NCBI GenBank assembly: GCA_023205875.1 | Contig: CP060764.1 | Location: forward strand, 310,001 to 374,000 | Reading direction: 5' to 3' | DNA length: 64,000 nucleotides | DNA from: Chloropicon primus | Taxonomy: Eukaryota | Shown here: positions 17,161 through 43,368 of the stretch, in pieces | How positions within the stretch are numbered: the first letter of the stretch is position 1 | Layout: every line of letters starts with the position of its first letter | Made by a program: the position numbers and the translations under genes | Notes under the pieces: model-generated | What the model saw: the letters and a program-made list of their open reading frames with translations, nothing else | What the model was told of the DNA's origin: nothing | Databases searched by the model: none

Positions 17161-18282
17161 ATGGCGAGGACGGCAGCGTTGTGGACGAGAAAGGCGGCCT
17201 CCGCGAGGGTGAGCCGCCTCGGCGGAGGAGCGGACGCTTCGTTGGCGTCGTCGTCGCTGTCGCTGCCTCCGACCCGGCGGCGACGGCGCCACGGCGTGAC
17301 GCTGGCGTGGGGTCGCGGCGAAGGAGGGAGCCAGGCCTGGGATAGTGACGACTGGGGAGACCCGTATGAGAATGAGGTTCTCAGTCGCGGAGGAGATGCG
17401 GAGTTTTCGGACCGAGGGAAGGAGGACGACGTCGTGATAGAGTTTAGAGATGTCTGGAAGTCTTTCGGGAGCAAAGGTGTCCTTCGAGGCGCGAGCTTCA
17501 AGATTAAGAGGGGAGAGGCCATCGGGATCATAGGTCCCTCAGGGACGGGCAAGAGCACGGCGTTGAGGTTGATAAGCGGCCTTGTTTCTCCCGACAGCGG
17601 GGACATTCTGGTGGACGGGAGGAGCATACTGGAGGACAGGAGGAAGAAGGGGACGGGGGACGGAAACGGCGCGGAGGATGTCCTGGGCGCGGCGACGGAG
17701 GGCAGGGCGAAGACAAACATCCAGCTTCAACTCGGGCTTGTTTTCCAGAACGGCGCCCTCTTCGACTCGCTCACCGTGGGCGAGAACGTTGGGTTTCGGT
17801 TGTACGAGCACTCCTCCCTGAGCCAGGGCAAGATCATGGAGAGGGTGTCCGACAGTTTGGCCAAGGTGGGTCTGAACGGCATAGAGGAGAGGTACCCGAG
17901 CGAGCTTTCGGGCGGCATGAAGAAGCGGGTGGCCCTTGCCAGAGCGATCACGAACGACGGCGACGGCAGCGGGGTGAGGGCGGAGGGGGAAATGGTGGAG
18001 GAGCTCATCATGTACGACGAGCCTACCGCTGGGCTGGACCCGGTCGCGTCCACTGTGGTGGAGGACCTCATCAGATCCCTCAAGGACAAGGGAGGGGTGA
18101 GGACGTACATTGTCGTCACTCACCAGGCGTCCACCATCGCCAGGGCGGTGGACAGGATCATCTTCCTTCACGAGGGAAAGGTCGTGTGGCAGGGCGACCA
18201 GCAGGACTTCAAAACCACCAAGGAGCCCATAGTGGACCAGTTCAGGTCGGGCAGTTTGTCCGGACCCATCAGCTACGTGTAG
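17161..18282 (+). CDS. TGD3: Plastid ABC ATPase TGD3 / MlaF-like
   Basis: Transit peptide; Walker A GPSGTGKS, VFQNGALFDSLTVGENVGF, LSGGMKKRVALARA, YDEPTAGLDPVASTVVEDLIRS. Confidence 0.92.
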   Translation: MARTAALWTRKAASARVSRLGGGADASLASSSLSLPPTRRRRRHGVTLAWGRGEGGSQAWDSDDWGDPYENEVLSRGGDAEFSDRGKEDDVVIEFRDVWKSFGSKGVLRGASFKIKRGEAIGIIGPSGTGKSTALRLISGLVSPDSGDILVDGRSILEDRRKKGTGDGNGAEDVLGAATEGRAKTNIQLQLGLVFQNGALFDSLTVGENVGFRLYEHSSLSQGKIMERVSDSLAKVGLNGIEERYPSELSGGMKKRVALARAITNDGDGSGVRAEGEMVEELIMYDEPTAGLDPVASTVVEDLIRSLKDKGGVRTYIVVTHQASTIARAVDRIIFLHEGKVVWQGDQQDFKTTKEPIVDQFRSGSLSGPISYV

Positions 18283-29257: not shown

Positions 29258-31191
29258 ATGATGCGGGCGTCGTCGACACGAAAGGGGAAGCTGGCGTGGG
29301 TGTCGCTCGTGCTGCTGTCGTCCCTCGCGACTGCGAGGGCAGCGACCCTTCTTCCTCCAAAGGTCCCTCTTGAAGAACTCGACGAAGCGGTCCTTCCGGT
29401 GCTTCACGCCTTCGAGGAGTCCGGCCTGCTTCTCGTGGATGGCGCAAGGGACTTCGAGGCAGCGAGGGTGGAAGCCCTCGCCAGGCTCGAGGAGTGCGTC
29501 GACGTGGAAGCGGATCACGTCCGCACCGCGTCGCTGGCGGACGGAGTGCTGAGGCACACGATAGCGACCAAGGGAGAGTTCTCCGAGGAGGTGAAGAGGG
29601 CGTGTCCCGAGTTCGCCCGAGCGGCGGGGGAGCTCCGGAGGCTCAGCCTTGCGGCGACGAGGAGGGTCGCGAGGGCTCTGCAGCGAGGTTTGGACGAGAG
29701 CCTCCCGCGAGCACCGTCTCGGGATGGTGGGATCGGCGTCGAGGAGAGCGTCGAGTCGGGCGAGCACCTCGAGCACTTCCACGTTTACAGAAGGGACTCG
29801 CCGCCGGGGGCAAGGGTCGAGGGGGGAGGCACGAGCGGACCGGTGCCGACGCTGGATATGCACACGGATCTGGGGGTGCTTCTGACCATGGCCCCTGCCC
29901 TTTACATGAAGCCTTCAGGGGGTCGCGGCAAGCAGCAGGTGGTTGCGCGCGGGAGCGGCTTGTTCGTCGAGACGAGAGATGGAGAGGTGAAGGAGGTTGC
30001 GATCCCGAGCGGTGAGTGGAATGAGTTCGTGCGGTAGAGCAACTCTCGGCGTGCGATGTATGGACTGACCCGTCCTCCCTTCCTTTCTCTTTTCGCAAAA
30101 CAAACCGCAAAACGACAGACGGGATACTTTTCATGCTGGGCGAAGGGGTAAACATGTGGGTCGAGCACAGCGCAGCCTTCCACATACCGAAACACGCCAT
30201 GGTGATGCCCGACGAGAACGAGGGCCCGATGACGAGGGCCTGGTACGGGCGAATGGTTCTCCCCCCGCACGGCGCAAAGCTTCAAGTGCAGGACGCGGGA
30301 GTGACTTACGGTGACTTCAAGGAAGTCGCGAAGAGAAAGTTGCAGGGCATTCAAGAGGAAGGCGACTCGAAGCTCCTTGACGCGATGCAAGGCGTCAGCT
30401 GCAGCCACGGTCGGACCCTCCTGACCAGCCTCAGCGTCCCGGGCCATCAGGACAAGGACGAGTGCGGGGAGGGGGAGATCTACTGCTGGATGCAGTGCAT
30501 GCCAACGAAAAGCCTGAACTGCTCCACGGAGGACATCCGGTGCGCCAACGAGGACGGCAAGATCTGGAAGAAGGAAACCGCGGAGATGTGCCCGAGCTGC
30601 CAGCTGCGCTGCGAAAGTCCCCCGACGCCCGAGTACAAGGTTTGCAACCCAAACTTTACGCCAGTCTCCATGTATATGAGCGGCTTCACTTGGGGGTTCA
30701 ACCCCAACGACCCGTGCTTGGTCTACCTCTTCCAGGGCCTCGTGCTCGACAACCAGTGGAAATTCGTTCTGGCCTGCTTCGTAACGGTGGGCCTCGGAGT
30801 CATGGCGGACTGCTGCATTCTCCTGAGGCAGTGGGTGAGGGAGAATATCAAATCGTGCGGGAAAGGCTTCAAGCTCGTCCTTTGGGAAACCGTCGGAGTC
30901 GCCTTCTTCACCTCGCAAGCGTTCTTGTCGTATGCCCTCATGCTGGTTGCGATGACGTACAAGGGCGAGCTCCTCTGCAGCCTTTTGGCGGGCCTGGCCA
31001 TCGGTTACTTTTTCTTCAAGAGGGAGGCGCGCCAAGAATCTCCCGAGCTTTGCTGCAACATCACCCTCTCCTCGAAATCCGCCCAGGAGCTGGAAGCCCC
31101 CAAACAGAAGAAGGAGGCGGAGCAGCTGCTGAGCAAGGATCACATGGACAGCAGTTTGCGGTGCTGCCAAGAAGAGCAGACCACGGATTAA
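29258..31191 (+). CDS. Signal peptide + 2OG-Fe(II) oxygenase-like domain + Cys-rich linker + Ctr copper transporter; intron 30012-30118
   Basis: Splice AGC G|AC GGG joins two ORFs in frame. HTD..H..R motifs; CWMQCM; SMYMSGF; TM MLVAM (MxxxM) and GLAIG (GxxxG) are Ctr hallmarks. Confidence 0.75.
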
Positions 31192-36764: not shown

Positions 36765-37196
36765 CCCTCCCTCTCTCCCTCCCTCCCTCTCTCTCCCCTC
36801 CCTCTCTCTCCGGGTGCGACGACCGCGCACAAGGTCCTCTCCCCTCCCTCCCTCTCTCTCCCTCCCCTCCCTCTCTCTCCGGGTGCGACGACCGCGCACA
36901 AGGTCCTCTCCCCTCCCTCCCTCTCTCTCCCTCCCCTCCCTCTCTCTCCGGGTGCGACGACCGCGCACAAGGTCCTCTCCCTCCCTCTCCCTCCCCTCCC
37001 TCTCTCTCTCTCCCTCCCTCTCTCCCTCTCTCTCTCTCTCCTCCCTCCCTCTCTCTCCGGGTGCGACGACCGCGCACAAGGTCCTCTCCCCTCCCTCTCC
37101 CTCCCCTCCCTCTCTCTCTCTCCCTCCCTCTCTCCCTCTCTCTCTCTCCCTCCCTCCCTCTCTCTCCGGGTGCGACGACCGCGCACAAGGTCCTCT
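36765..37196. repeat. Minisatellite: 5 copies of cgggtgcgacgaccgcgcacaaggtcctct separated by CT-rich tracts
   Basis: Cores at 36811, 36880, 36949, 37058, 37167; periods 69, 69, 109, 109. Confidence 0.97.
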
Positions 37197-37535
37197 ACAA
37201 CCCTCTCCCCTCCTTTGTCTGCAGCAGAGATCTGTTGTACAATTAGGCTGAGGTGGCCCGTTTCCCGCTTCGAAAAAAACAAGTTTGAAAAAAGGGACCA
37301 GGGGCGGAGGAAGGACGCGAAAACCCCAAGGTAAGGCGACTCCACGGGAGCGCGACCACGTGGGAGAAGAACAGAAGCACGCGCCCTCTCGAAACCTTTC
37401 CAAAGAGCCCTCGTTCGAAAGGTTTGGACGTCATGACTGAATGCAACGTCTTGTCCCTTGTTCGTCGTTGTCTTTGCTTGTTCTTCTTCCTCGCCCCATG
37501 GAAGTGTAACGGAAGGTGCCCACCGTCACGACGAA

Positions 37536-40854: not shown

Positions 40855-40942
40855 GTCGATGCGTGCGTACGATGGAACCAGAGCCGGTCACCAGGGAGAG
40901 CGAGAGGGGGGGAGAGCGAGCGAGCGAGGATGACGGCTTGTT

Positions 40943-40987
40943 GCCATCGCCATTGCCATCGCCATTGCCATCGCCATTGCCATCGCA
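40943..40987. repeat. Short tandem repeat (gccatcgccatt)n
   Basis: About 3.5 copies of a 12-mer in the 3' region of the LRR gene. Confidence 0.9.
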
Positions 40988-41251
40988 CGTCCTCCTGATC
41001 TGATGATGATGGCGATGATGTTGTAACGCTTAACGCTTGATTCGTCACATGTCATCACTGGTGTGTCCATCCAAACTGAGGCAGGCGCGACTCTTCGGCA
41101 AAGGCTAGGTCAATTGCGCGTGAAGGGCGGCGAGCGAGGACGACAATAGAAGAAGAAGGTGACCTCGTGTGATCCTCTGTGCAAAGCCAGAACACAAACC
41201 TCTTTGTATCATCCCACATCAGCGGCGACGACGACGAGGAGGAGGGTGATC

Positions 41252-42991
41252 ATGCAGTGGCAATCATCATCCGTGCTTATTGGCCTCGCCTGCCTCGTCC
41301 TCTTCGTTTCCGGGGTGGCGGCAGACGGGGTCAACCTCGAGAATGTGGAGAACTGCAAGACAATGGAGGTTGACTTCATCGTCAACGAAGGAGATGCCAC
41401 AGCCAAGGCGATCGAGGACGACATCGTCAGCGATTTGGCCAAAGTCGGCATTAAGGTCAATACTCGGCTCTTGTCGAAGGACGATCTCAACGAGGCCATG
41501 GTGAACGGCGACTTCAACCTGGCCTTCTCGGAGTCGTGGGGTGCTCCGTACGACCCCCAAGCTTTCGCTGCGTCTTGGTCCACGCCGGACGAGGCGTATC
41601 ACGCCGCCCTGGACGGCCTGGAAGGGCCTTACACGAAGGAGGCCCTGAGCGGCATGATCCAGGAGGCCCTGGTTAAGGAGACGGAGGGGGAGCGCGAGGA
41701 AGCGTGGACCGAGATCCTCGAGGCCTTGCACAGTCAAGCCACCGAGCTGCCTTTCTCTGGGAAGCGCATCCCTGCCGTGATCAACAAGCGGCTGACGGGT
41801 TACATCCCCGGAACCCAGCAGTTCGATTATCCGGCGCACACGCTCAGGGTACTCACTGGGAGCAAGACCGTAACCGTCGCCCCGGGGGCACAGACGGGCC
41901 TCTTCAGCAACGAGACTGGCGTGGGACGCTTGGATCCCCATACGTACCGCCCAAACGAGTTCTTCGCGAACAACTGGGTGTACGATGGTCTCGTCGAGTA
42001 CGGACCCTCCGGGACCCTGATCCCCGCCCTCGCGGAGTCTTGGACCGTCGCCGATGGGGACGGCGAGGGACAGACGTACACCTTCAACTTGCGAAAGGGC
42101 GTCAAATTTCATGATGGCGCGCCTTGGAACTGCGCGGCCGCAAAGTTGAACTTTGATCACGTGCTGGCTGCCCCCCTCGTCACCGCCGATTACCATGGCT
42201 GGTACGCTCTACCTGGGCAGATCAAAGACTGGAAGTGCATCGATGACTACACCTTTGTTGTTGAGACCAAGGGCAAGTACTACCCCCTTCTCCAAGAGCT
42301 GTCTTTCATTCGACCGCTCAGGATGCTGTCGCCAAACCTGTTTGTCGGTGGCCTCGACAGCGATCCGCTGACGGAGAACTCGTGCCACGTCGGTTGGGGC
42401 AACGTGTCCGACTCTGGCGTCACGGTGCAGTGCGCTGGGATCGTGGGCGGAGGCGTCTCGAATGGCGGCACTGTGAGCGGCACAGGGAGATGGATCTATG
42501 ACAAGACGGAGATGGATGGGAGCGCTGTCAAGAGGGTTCACTTCAAGATCAATCCCGACCATTGGGATGCGCCCTCCGGACAACACCCCGAGGAGCTTGT
42601 CGTTGTGCACTACCCAACGCACACCGAAGTCAAGGACGCCCTTCTCGACGGGTCCCTGGATGCGGTGATGGGCTCTGGTGTCTTGACCGAGGCGGAGGTG
42701 GCGATGCTCAAGAGTGATCACAGCGACAAGTTGTCCGTCTCCCTGACCGAGCCGATTCAGAACCGCATCATCGTCATGAACACCGCGAAGGCTCCAACGG
42801 ACAGCCTTCAGAACCGCAAGGTCATCATCCACTCGATCGACAAGGCCTCCATCATCAAGAAGGAGCTTGCGGGATTGGACGAGCCTGCCGTATCGCTCTT
42901 CCCCAAAAATGCTCCGTACAGCGGCGCTCACCTGACCCCTCTGCCGGACTACGACATCGAGAAGGCCAGGCTCCTCAACTGCCCGGTCTAA
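41252..42991 (+). CDS. Secreted NikA-like (SBP family 5) nickel/metallophore-binding protein, circularly permuted
   Basis: Signal peptide; SWGAPYDP (NikA TWGAPYDP); LDPHTY..NNWVYDGLVEY..IPALAESW..YTFNLRKGVKFHDG; RPLRM; YDIEKA. The segments occur in rotated order. Confidence 0.88.
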   Translation: MQWQSSSVLIGLACLVLFVSGVAADGVNLENVENCKTMEVDFIVNEGDATAKAIEDDIVSDLAKVGIKVNTRLLSKDDLNEAMVNGDFNLAFSESWGAPYDPQAFAASWSTPDEAYHAALDGLEGPYTKEALSGMIQEALVKETEGEREEAWTEILEALHSQATELPFSGKRIPAVINKRLTGYIPGTQQFDYPAHTLRVLTGSKTVTVAPGAQTGLFSNETGVGRLDPHTYRPNEFFANNWVYDGLVEYGPSGTLIPALAESWTVADGDGEGQTYTFNLRKGVKFHDGAPWNCAAAKLNFDHVLAAPLVTADYHGWYALPGQIKDWKCIDDYTFVVETKGKYYPLLQELSFIRPLRMLSPNLFVGGLDSDPLTENSCHVGWGNVSDSGVTVQCAGIVGGGVSNGGTVSGTGRWIYDKTEMDGSAVKRVHFKINPDHWDAPSGQHPEELVVVHYPTHTEVKDALLDGSLDAVMGSGVLTEAEVAMLKSDHSDKLSVSLTEPIQNRIIVMNTAKAPTDSLQNRKVIIHSIDKASIIKKELAGLDEPAVSLFPKNAPYSGAHLTPLPDYDIEKARLLNCPV

Positions 42992-43368
42992 ACGTTTTGT
43001 TCAAGCAATACAAGTTTTCCTCCTCCTCCTTTCCTCTGATCATCACCGGGGACTCTTTCACACGAAGCAGGAGGACACTCACTGAGATCCGAGCCATCCA
43101 CTCTCACTCCGCCCTGCTCCAACCTCTGACCGCTCCGAGCTTCTGGTTACACCCACCCCACACACACACACACGCCAGCCCCAGAAGCAACAATGGCCAG
43201 CAGCAGCAGAAAAAAGATTGTGACAGAAGCTGAGCAAATCAGCAGATGCATCACCAGAGTCACCACCAAGGACTCTCTCTCGTGCCAGCCTCATCCTCAC
43301 CAAGTTCCAACCCATCCATCACCTCTGCTCTGGCCAAGCTTTTCAAACTGGCCTGACAGACAGAGCTG

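What the first reader, a model, noticed from the sequence alone, without database searches (positions are those of the whole stretch)
41252..42991. Circularly permuted, secreted NikA-type nickel/metallophore-binding protein in an alga
Seen: after the signal peptide, the first block (~41360-41846; DFIV..AIEDDIVSDLAKVGI..SWGAPYDP..LHSQATELP) matches the C-terminal third of bacterial NikA. The second block (~41870-42980; LDPHTY..VYDGLVEY..LAESW..VKFHDG..RPLRM..YDIEKA) matches its N-terminal two thirds, so the chain is rotated. The cut falls just after the YDxxKA helix. An Asn-Cys pair sits at each new end (Cys codons 41354 and 42980). Known: NikA binds Ni-chelate complexes through W100, R137, W398, Y402 and H416 and delivers them to the NikBCDE ABC importer. 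Equivalents HGW, RP and WGAPY appear kept, while the H416 position seems to read Glu. Inference: a horizontally acquired gene re-engineered into a free or surface metallophore scavenger, with the new termini stapled by a disulfide. No permease or matching ATPase is nearby, which implies an undescribed eukaryotic uptake route.
Basis: partly seen in the sequence, partly recalled or inferred. Interest (0 to 1): 0.88.

Follow-up and report, generated by a model that had tools for sequence, protein, structure and literature searches.

The report
Rewired algal metal-chelate receptor with reductase
This algal gene encodes a predicted secreted relative of bacterial nickel-binding proteins whose two chain halves are in swapped order; it belongs to the family of the diatom zinc/cobalt-starvation protein ZCRP-B, and because many relatives sit head-to-head with a membrane reductase gene, it likely catches organically bound metal (probably cobalt) that a reductase would then free for uptake.

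Summary
The circular permutation is real. Residues 38-186 match E. coli NikA 342-484 and residues 223-575 match NikA 13-318. RNA-type contigs from two studies cover the intronless gene without a difference. It is not unique to this alga: none of 286 relatives has the bacterial order, while 63 of 63 bacterial loci do. The family includes diatom ZCRP-B, a published Zn/Co-starvation surface protein, which proves to be permuted too; I found no paper saying so. Trees favour one transfer into eukaryotes in normal order, then one permutation. The terminal cysteines are kept in 91 of 93 rows and flank a deleted hairpin. New here: in 19 of 19 environmental loci with at least 3 kb upstream, a NOX/ferric-reductase gene lies head-to-head, as in diatom FBP1-FRE2. 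The best reading is a chelate receptor working with a reductase instead of an ABC permease. This copy lacks the membrane anchor and has no adjacent reductase. Ligand, metal and disulfide are untested, and nickel specificity is doubtful.

The parts
41252..42991 (+). Intronless ORF, 579 aa: circularly permuted NikA-like family-5 solute-binding protein
   Evidence: the exact protein is also held by mmetsp and eukprot
41252..41323 (+). Predicted signal peptide, about residues 1-24
   Evidence: Hydropathy peak 3.2; pLDDT under 50 for residues 1-26; cleavage site judged by eye
41348..41854 (+). Block A, residues 33-201, equal to NikA ~335-500 (C-terminal third). Holds W96, Y100, E94 and E114 (NikA W398, Y402, R396, H416)
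41846..41869 (+). New junction: the old C-terminus (NikA ~500) joined almost directly to the old N-terminus (NikA ~5), residues ~199-206
   Evidence: P0001 201 = NikA 500; 206 = NikA 5; pLDDT above 90 in the blocks covering it
41861..42985 (+). Block B, residues 204-578, equal to NikA ~2-322. Holds Y232, E236, W317 and R354 (NikA Y22, Q26, W100, R137)
41354..41356 (+). Cys35, N-terminal half of the predicted staple disulfide (at NikA 337)
42980..42982 (+). Cys577, C-terminal half of the predicted staple disulfide (at NikA 320); the stop follows two residues later, with no membrane tail
42131..42238 (+). Cys294 and Cys329, a second conserved pair found in the permuted clade
   Evidence: 108 of 108 rows each; 0 of 9 unpermuted eukaryote-like rows
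42347..42475 (+). Insertion relative to NikA, with Cys378 and Cys394; shared with unpermuted eukaryote-like relatives
   Evidence: Gap between matches; Cys in 107 and 106 of 108, and in 7 of 9 unpermuted rows
41080..43025 (+). Extent of the likely transcript; one contig ends in a run of A at 43025
   Evidence: contigs 41080-43019 and 41121-43025 from two studies, 0 differences, 0 gaps; that these runs are RNA is the tool's guess

Best explanation
The gene encodes a circularly permuted, NikA-derived binding protein of the ZCRP-B family that is predicted to be secreted and likely captures organically complexed metal at the cell surface when zinc and cobalt are scarce, after which a NOX/ferric-reductase-type membrane enzyme, not an ABC permease, would free the metal for ordinary cation transporters. 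Shown: the permutation, the intact NikA-like model, family membership, and the head-to-head reductase gene in relatives. Inferred history: one transfer of a normal-order nikA into eukaryotes, gain of a Cys-bearing insertion and a C-terminal anchor, then one rotation, probably through a tandem duplication. The rotation removed the NikA 321-336 hairpin and a disulfide is predicted to replace it. Inferred cargo: Zn(II) and Ni(II) cannot be reduced by such enzymes (established chemistry), so the reductase points to a redox-active metal. I commit to cobalt(III) chelates (about 0.3), with Co(II) then standing in for zinc. The window's copy has lost the anchor and would work as a soluble shuttle, perhaps held inside the cell wall, with its reductase encoded elsewhere in the genome.
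For: Order and fold. Family: 0 of 286 in bacterial order. P0431 carries both peptides encoded by the published P. tricornutum ZCRP-B primers (12 of 12 and 11 of 11 residues), is permuted and aligns collinearly with P0001 (42%, E 3e-159). ZCRP-B rises at low Zn/Co and is at the membrane (PMC9010474). That paper gives 41% between the P. tricornutum and T. pseudonana proteins, which is the level between the His-type and the other subfamilies (medians 41.8 against 58.6 within the His type), so the T. pseudonana protein probably lies outside the His type. Reductase: Pfam Ferric_reduct on the divergent neighbour in 20 loci; 19 of 19 loci with at least 3 kb upstream and 24 of 28 with at least 1 kb; 0 of 20 downstream flanks; 0 of 63 bacterial loci, 61 of which have NikB/C-like genes; 0 of 80 environmental loci have those. 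The pair occurs in 8 of 10 clusters at 70% identity, including Diacronema-like, diatom-like and Triparma-like loci. Conserved His and FAD/NADPH-type motifs are present and the closest structures are NOX2, DUOX1 and NOX5. COG0523 chaperones (the ZCRP-A family) lie nearby in 5 of 80 loci. Three exact plant zinc-deficiency elements lie between the two genes in L106. The same layout is published for FBP1-FRE2 (PMC6876252). A T. pseudonana protein annotated NikA falls under iron limitation (PMC3797725).
Against: The window gene has no reductase or COG0523 gene in the window, no zinc-deficiency element upstream and no anchor; its genome was not available. No ligand, metal, reductase substrate or disulfide was measured. 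The pocket differs from both NikA and P. tricornutum ZCRP-B, so the Zn/Co response is carried over by homology only. The T. pseudonana ZCRP-B sequence was not retrieved. Reductase pairing was testable only in the Glu-type subfamily. Four pelagophyte-like loci with 1.0-2.4 kb upstream showed no reductase, and 52 of 80 loci were too short to test. Many paired loci are close kin. The zinc element was found in only 1 of 38 upstream regions, and its plant regulators are reported absent from green algae (PMC9643250). ZCRP-B counts correlated significantly with Zn but not with Co (p 0.034 against 0.353).
Confidence: 0.5

Rival explanations
1. It concentrates Zn(II) or Co(II), free or weakly chelated, at the surface and passes it to ZIP transporters or is endocytosed, with no redox step (the model of Kellogg et al.). 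The reductase would be a co-regulated neighbour with its own job.
For: PMC9010474 section 10; the response is strongest to Zn; a conserved cytosolic tail motif GxP[LVIM]F in 139 of 250 anchored members could serve sorting; the window gene has no adjacent reductase.
Against: The head-to-head pair is kept across distant lineages, and the two proteins' identities run together (Spearman 0.92 on 35 of 55 pairs, kin not independent). A soluble form without an anchor fits endocytosis of a tethered receptor poorly.
Confidence: 0.2
2. It is a reductase-coupled receptor as in the best reading, but for Fe(III) or Cu(II) chelates.
For: Same layout as the iron-siderophore pair FBP1-FRE2. NikA structures hold Fe-EDTA and other Fe chelates (titles). 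Some members are fused to a PF01497 binding domain (P0044, P0177). A Ctr copper-transporter gene lies 10 kb upstream in the window.
Against: A NikA-annotated T. pseudonana protein was the most down-regulated protein under iron limitation (its identity with ZCRP-B was not checked). The COG0523 neighbours and the zinc element point to zinc regulation.
Confidence: 0.15
3. It scavenges a nickel metallophore for urease or Ni-superoxide dismutase.
For: The nearest families and structures are NikA; W100, R137, W398, Y402 and Y22 are kept.
Against: H416, which a PDB title calls essential for nickel uptake (3qim), is Glu in 107 of 108 rows; R97 is lost; the score is below the NikA cut-off; a reductase would not act on Ni(II). 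The His-type subfamily, not this one, keeps the NikA-like pocket.
Confidence: 0.1
4. The ligand is not a metal complex but a cationic organic nutrient held in an aromatic, acidic pocket.
For: Pocket changes towards acidic residues (E94, E114, E236) beside several aromatics; family-5 proteins bind many organic ligands.
Against: Metal-related neighbours and the published Zn/Co response.
Confidence: 0.04
5. The order is an artefact: a mis-assembly or a fragment of a tandem gene.
For: Tandem multi-unit genes exist in the family (L123, P0061, P0087, P0102).
Against: Single contigs from two studies span the gene with no difference; there is no other block in the window; 278 of 286 relatives are plain single permuted units.
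Confidence: 0.01

Closest known systems
Diatom ZCRP-B (P. tricornutum 49168 / XP_002183815.1; T. pseudonana XP_002297477.1; PMC9010474)
   Same: Same family and same permuted order. P0431, identified through the paper's primers, aligns over 557 columns at 42%. Both are NikA-like; the paper found no NikB/C partner.
   Different: P0431 has a C-terminal membrane helix (the paper's text says near the N-terminus) and keeps the H416 and R97 equivalents. The window protein has no anchor and is of the Glu type. The paper's text and the text of its supplements mention no permutation, and its main text mentions no reductase.
E. coli NikA of NikABCDE (PDB 1zlq, 1uiu, 3qim); Brucella NikA (4oer)
   Same: Fold and five pocket residues.
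   Different: Rotated chain, deleted 321-336 hairpin, six conserved cysteines, an insertion, changes H416E, R97Y, R396E, Q26E and Y382N, and no permease genes.
S. aureus CntA, staphylopine-metal receptor (PDB 5yh5, 5yh8, 5yhe)
   Same: Next closest family; binds Co and Ni through a metallophore (structure titles).
   Different: Scores 183 against a cut-off of 800; normal order; works with an ABC importer.
P. tricornutum FBP1-FRE2 siderophore uptake pair (PMC6876252)
   Same: A binding protein of bacterial origin at the cell surface, encoded divergently from an NADPH-oxidase-type reductase; both are needed for uptake.
   Different: FBP1 is FhuD/DesE-like, iron-regulated and tested by knockouts. 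This is a family-5 protein linked to Zn/Co and untested, and the window copy is not next to its reductase.
Chlorophyte NIKA from horizontal transfer (Bracteacoccus; PMC11811186)
   Same: Reports NikA acquired from bacteria early in chlorophytes.
   Different: No permutation is mentioned in the main text; I did not obtain the sequences, so their order is unknown.

Membership tests
Family-5 / cluster C solute-binding proteins (PF00496) | Pfam score above the curated cut-off | tested here: met
   145.9 against 32.4 bits
Family-5 / cluster C solute-binding proteins (PF00496) | NikA/DppA-type fold | tested here: met
   pTM 0.89; best matches NikA; the aligners covered block B only
Family-5 / cluster C solute-binding proteins (PF00496) | Usual chain order | tested here: not met
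   Blocks swapped
NikA (TIGR02294) | Score above the equivalog cut-off | tested here: not met
   299.4 against 393; the permutation itself may lower the score
   Y232, W317, R354, W96, Y100
NikA (TIGR02294) | His416 and Arg97 | tested here: not met
   E114 and Y314; Glu in 107 of 108
NikA (TIGR02294) | Adjacent nikBCDE permease and ATPase genes | tested here: not met
   No NikB/C-like match in the window or in 80 environmental loci; present in 61 of 63 bacterial loci. The rest of the genome was not available
NikA (TIGR02294) | Binds a nickel chelate | not testable with these tools
   Needs a binding assay
CntA (NF047575) | Score above the cut-off | tested here: not met
   183.2 against 800
ZCRP-B family | Full-length collinear homology to ZCRP-B | tested here: met
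   42%, E 3e-159 to P0431; P0431 identified indirectly by two primer-encoded peptides, not by accession
ZCRP-B family | Single membrane anchor | tested here: not met
   Stop two residues after Cys577; highest hydropathy after residue 30 is 1.0; transcript-like contigs show no extra exon
ZCRP-B family | Same subfamily as P. tricornutum ZCRP-B | tested here: not met
   The His-type clade is separate, 100/100; the window protein is Glu type
ZCRP-B family | Induced by low Zn/Co | not testable with these tools
   Only contigs were available
FBP1-FRE2-type receptor-reductase system | Binding protein of bacterial origin | tested here: met
   Eukaryote-like rows form one side of a 100/100 branch against NikA-like prokaryotic rows; the direction is inferred from rooting on bacteria
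FBP1-FRE2-type receptor-reductase system | Divergent NOX/FRE-type reductase gene next to this gene | tested here: not met
   None in the window
FBP1-FRE2-type receptor-reductase system | Divergent NOX/FRE-type reductase gene next to relatives | tested here: met
   19 of 19 loci with at least 3 kb upstream; 24 of 28 with at least 1 kb
FBP1-FRE2-type receptor-reductase system | Both genes needed for uptake of a metal chelate | not testable with these tools
   Needs knockouts

The most novel reading that the evidence does not exclude
Marine algae from several supergroups share an ancient, undescribed reductive uptake system for ligand-bound cobalt(III): a circularly permuted, disulfide-stapled NikA descendant catches the inert complex, a head-to-head NOX-type reductase releases Co(II), and a COG0523 chaperone allocates it, letting zinc-starved eukaryotes tap the chelated cobalt pool of the surface ocean.
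Probability: 0.25. Interest if true: 0.87.

Novelty: new variant of a known kind. Interest (0 to 1): 0.66.

Why it matters
ZCRP-B is used as a field marker of zinc stress, yet its ligand and uptake partner are unknown, and one field study traced its hits to bacteria (bioRxiv 10.1101/2023.11.05.565706). The swapped order gives a junction that would separate the permuted algal proteins from bacterial NikA. Two pocket types suggest two cargoes under one name. The conserved reductase partner turns 'how do algae take up chelated zinc and cobalt' into a direct knockout test, with FBP1-FRE2 as the template. Normal-order, tandem and permuted forms all survive in one clade, so the family is also a natural record of permutation by duplication.

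Tried and rejected
No whole genome was held, so permeases, urease, NiSOD and reductases elsewhere in this organism could not be sought. Viral contigs gave four weak partial matches only. The ESM Atlas gave generic family-5 clusters for the whole protein and nothing for the membrane tail. My first primer test against a Glu-type profile placed only one of four primers, and my guess for where a second one lay was wrong; the exact match came. The two screening primers matched no protein convincingly. The idea that the His-type subfamily branches first was rejected (AU p 0.003). The idea that the Diacronema protein was permuted independently looked open against the quick tree (constrained tree 14.8 log units higher, p 0.73) and was rejected only against the better tree (p 0.0125). 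The careful mixture-model search did not finish. No shared upstream motif emerged from 11 representative regions. A search for permuted prokaryotic relatives found none: 0 of 63 loci, no junction-spanning match in 301 sampled genomes (at most 4 candidates scored each), and 0 of 20 stretches fetched; this does not exclude distant Opp/Dpp-type permutants. A receptor-reductase complex prediction was not folded, so nothing is known about contact. Model coordinates are not returned, so the Cys35-Cys577 distance was not measured.

Full report
Observation. The stretch 41252-42991 (+) is one open frame of 579 codons among eukaryotic genes (LRR, FHA-RING, oxysterol-binding protein, Arf, TAF2). Its GC at third positions is 0.78, against 0.78-0.86 for four neighbours. 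I infer a green picoalga from the neighbours and from the nearest named relative, Pycnococcus provasolii, 68%; this was not verified. Against solved structures, residues 38-186 match E. coli NikA 342-484, 223-365 match 13-148 and 409-575 match 160-318. The model built from 108 aligned relatives has pLDDT 92.6 and pTM 0.89. Foldseek ranks NikA first, and residues 203-575 align with NikA 2-318 at Z 25.8, rmsd 2.4. No other copy of either block lies in the window. Contigs from two studies cover 41080-43019 and 41121-43025 with no difference and no gap, one ending in a run of A (RNA status is the tool's guess), and the exact protein is in mmetsp and eukprot. The permutation is real and is not an assembly error or a fragment.

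Anatomy. With the fetched E. coli gene as ruler, residue 201 is NikA 500 and residue 206 is NikA 5, so the old termini are joined almost directly. Cys577 sits at NikA 320 and Cys35 at NikA 337; the segment between is deleted. I recall that segment as a surface hairpin whose ends lie close together. Both cysteines are present in 91 of 93 aligned rows that reach both ends, in 0 of 9 normal-order eukaryote-like rows and in 0 of 51 prokaryote-like rows. In a tandem gene they are three residues apart in frame. A staple disulfide is therefore likely but unmeasured. Two more cysteine pairs are conserved (294/329 in 108 of 108; 378/394 in 107 and 106 of 108). Y22, W100, R137, W398 and Y402 are kept; H416, R396 and Q26 become Glu, R97 becomes Tyr, T23 becomes Arg and Y382 becomes Asn.

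Family. The first search gave 790 hits, 120 listed, most full-length and collinear. Of the 286 proteins listed by three searches, 278 are single permuted units, 3 are tandem pieces, 5 are partial and none has the bacterial order; 250 have a C-terminal membrane-like helix, 13 a short tail like the window protein, 12 a long tail without one, and 11 could not be classed. Named members include green algae, diatoms, bolidophytes, pelagophytes, dinoflagellates, a cryptophyte, a haptophyte and a picozoan. In a scan of 185,579 prokaryotic genomes with three family patterns, all 63 confirmed loci have the normal order, as do 20 further stretches picked from a sample of 301 genomes. Earlier AI notes from this scan describe distant Opp/Dpp-type prokaryotic proteins with a similar rotation. 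I did not recover any, so I treat them as a lead that this cut site is reused, which lowers the surprise of the rotation itself.

Link to ZCRP-B. PMC9010474 (read: abstract, sections 6 and 10, parts 2 and 4 of the text, the first part of the methods, term passages, supplements 1 and 4, searches of the review file) describes ZCRP-B, a NikA-like diatom protein that rises at low Zn/Co and lies at the membrane. Its knockout primers encode two peptides found exactly in P0431 (12 of 12 and 11 of 11 residues), so P0431 is the P. tricornutum protein or its cluster representative. P0431 is permuted, has a C-terminal anchor and aligns with the window protein at 42% over 557 columns. It belongs to a His-type subfamily that keeps H416 and R97; the window protein is Glu type. 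The paper's 41% between P. tricornutum and T. pseudonana matches the between-subfamily level, so the T. pseudonana protein probably lies outside the His type; I did not obtain its sequence.

Literature. 'Permut' occurs 0 times in that paper's text and four supplements, in the two preprints that mention ZCRP-B (passages only) and in PMC11811186, which reports NikA transfer into chlorophytes (passages only). 'Reductase' occurs 0 times in the main text and review file of PMC9010474. Its Supplementary Figure 6, the alignment, is a picture I could not see, and the supplements of the preprints and of PMC11811186 were not read. Searches listed no paper on the permutation or the pairing (listings only; one search showed 20 of 194). 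The library lacks most subscription papers. Two earlier AI notes report the same permuted family in other algae; they are not independent evidence.

History. Blocks were aligned separately and concatenated. FastTree on 113 rows, a quick mixture-model tree on 61 of them and a careful LG+G4 tree on the same 61 all separate eukaryote-like from prokaryote-like rows at 100. Nine normal-order eukaryote-like proteins branch at the base, and the permuted rows form one clade (96; 95; 99/93; 100/100 without the Diacronema protein). An independent permutation in Diacronema was open against the quick tree and rejected against the careful tree (p 0.0125). No bacterial donor group stands out. The labels of unnamed rows are inferred, and several rows have odd composition. 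Tandem genes in the family show that the duplication route is available, but they may be secondary.

The partner. Of 185 confirmed metagenome matches, 80 were returned; 75 show the single permuted order. Pfam found a ferric-reductase membrane domain on the divergent upstream gene in 20 loci, and a profile built from ten of them added four. The counts are 19 of 19 loci with at least 3 kb upstream, 24 of 28 with at least 1 kb, 0 of 20 downstream flanks of at least 2 kb, and 0 of 63 bacterial loci. NikB/C-like genes show the reverse pattern: 61 of 63 bacterial loci and 0 of 80 environmental loci. The pair is found in 11 of 15 clusters at 90% identity and 8 of 10 at 70%, including loci 82% identical to Diacronema, 80% to Triparma and 57% to diatom proteins; the four misses are pelagophyte-like with 1.0-2.4 kb upstream. 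The reductases keep conserved His residues and FAD/NADPH-type motifs and resemble NOX2, DUOX1 and NOX5. COG0523 genes lie nearby in 5 of 80 loci, from two lineages. One locus has three exact plant zinc-deficiency elements between the two genes (motif confirmed in PMC9643250, passages), but 37 other upstream regions, the window's among them, have no exact copy. PMC6876252 (passages) shows the same layout for FBP1-FRE2, where both genes are needed for siderophore iron uptake. The window gene itself has no such neighbour.

Mechanism. Shown: rotated chain, NikA-like model, ZCRP-B family membership and the conserved reductase pairing in relatives. Inferred: secretion, the staple, chelate binding, and reductive release followed by import through ordinary cation transporters. 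Zn(II) and Ni(II) are not substrates for such reductases, iron limitation lowers a T. pseudonana protein annotated NikA (PMC3797725, passages), and the regulatory hints point to zinc scarcity. I therefore favour cobalt(III) complexes as cargo, at about 0.3 within an overall confidence of 0.5. That seawater cobalt is largely held as inert Co(III) complexes, and that carboxylate suits trivalent ions better than imidazole, are recalled and come from no call. The rivals are a non-redox Zn/Co concentrator (0.2), Fe or Cu chelates (0.15), nickel (0.1) and a non-metal ligand (0.04). Whether the two proteins touch is open.

Verdict. A new variant of a known kind. The protein family is published; its circular permutation, its two pocket types and its reductase partner were not found in print. 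Interest 0.66; 0.87 if reductive uptake of chelated cobalt is confirmed.

Noticed in passing
L065-L140 (24 loci), upstream of the match on the - strand: A NOX/ferric-reductase-type gene (about 740-900 aa where complete) lies head-to-head with the binding-protein gene; the profile matches are 0.3-1.4 kb apart.
   Followed up: yes
L106:1389-1653: Three exact copies and one one-mismatch copy of the land-plant zinc-deficiency element between the reductase and the binding-protein gene of a Diacronema-like locus; 0 of 20000 shuffles reach two exact copies.
   Followed up: partly
L123:2015-4671; L112; L131; P0061, P0087, P0102: Tandem multi-unit genes. In L123 the end cysteine of one unit and the start cysteine of the next are three residues apart in frame, and the two A copies are 86% identical in DNA.
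   Followed up: partly
P0044; P0177/P0389 (Diacronema lutheri); P0250: Fusions with a second binding domain: PF01497 before (P0044) or after (P0177) the permuted unit; P0250 appears, by eye, to continue into another family-5-like domain. P0177 lacks the terminal cysteines.
   Followed up: partly
P0192, P0193, P0200, P0203, P0215, P0252, P0254, P0260, P0278: Normal-order relatives that branch below the permuted clade. Only the P0278 cluster has a named organism (Calcidiscus leptoporus); the rest are judged eukaryotic from their tails and tree position.
   Followed up: yes
C-terminal tails of family members: A cytosolic motif with core GxP[LVIM]F after the membrane helix in 139 of 250 anchored members, also in some unpermuted ones; function unknown.
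   Followed up: partly
P0015 and P0521 (Pycnococcus provasolii): Both subfamilies lack the membrane anchor in this green alga, as does the window protein; loss of the anchor in walled cells is a guess.
   Followed up: no
P0431 and relatives P0429-P0541: The His-type subfamily nests inside the Glu type in all trees yet has the NikA-like pocket (H416, R97), which suggests reversion or recombination.
   Followed up: partly
window 30133-31191 (+): Ctr copper-transporter family gene 10 kb upstream; no link shown.
   Followed up: no
window 17161-18282 (+): Stand-alone ABC ATPase whose best family is MlaF, below the cut-off; probably unrelated.
   Followed up: partly
L066:6277-7542 (-): A D5-like primase domain downstream of the binding-protein gene, possibly an integrated mobile element.
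   Followed up: no
L117:4363-5097 and L118:6360-6983: DUF1826 genes near pelagophyte-like members.
   Followed up: no
window 36800-37350 and 40941-40986: Simple tandem repeats in flanking non-coding DNA, seen.
   Followed up: no
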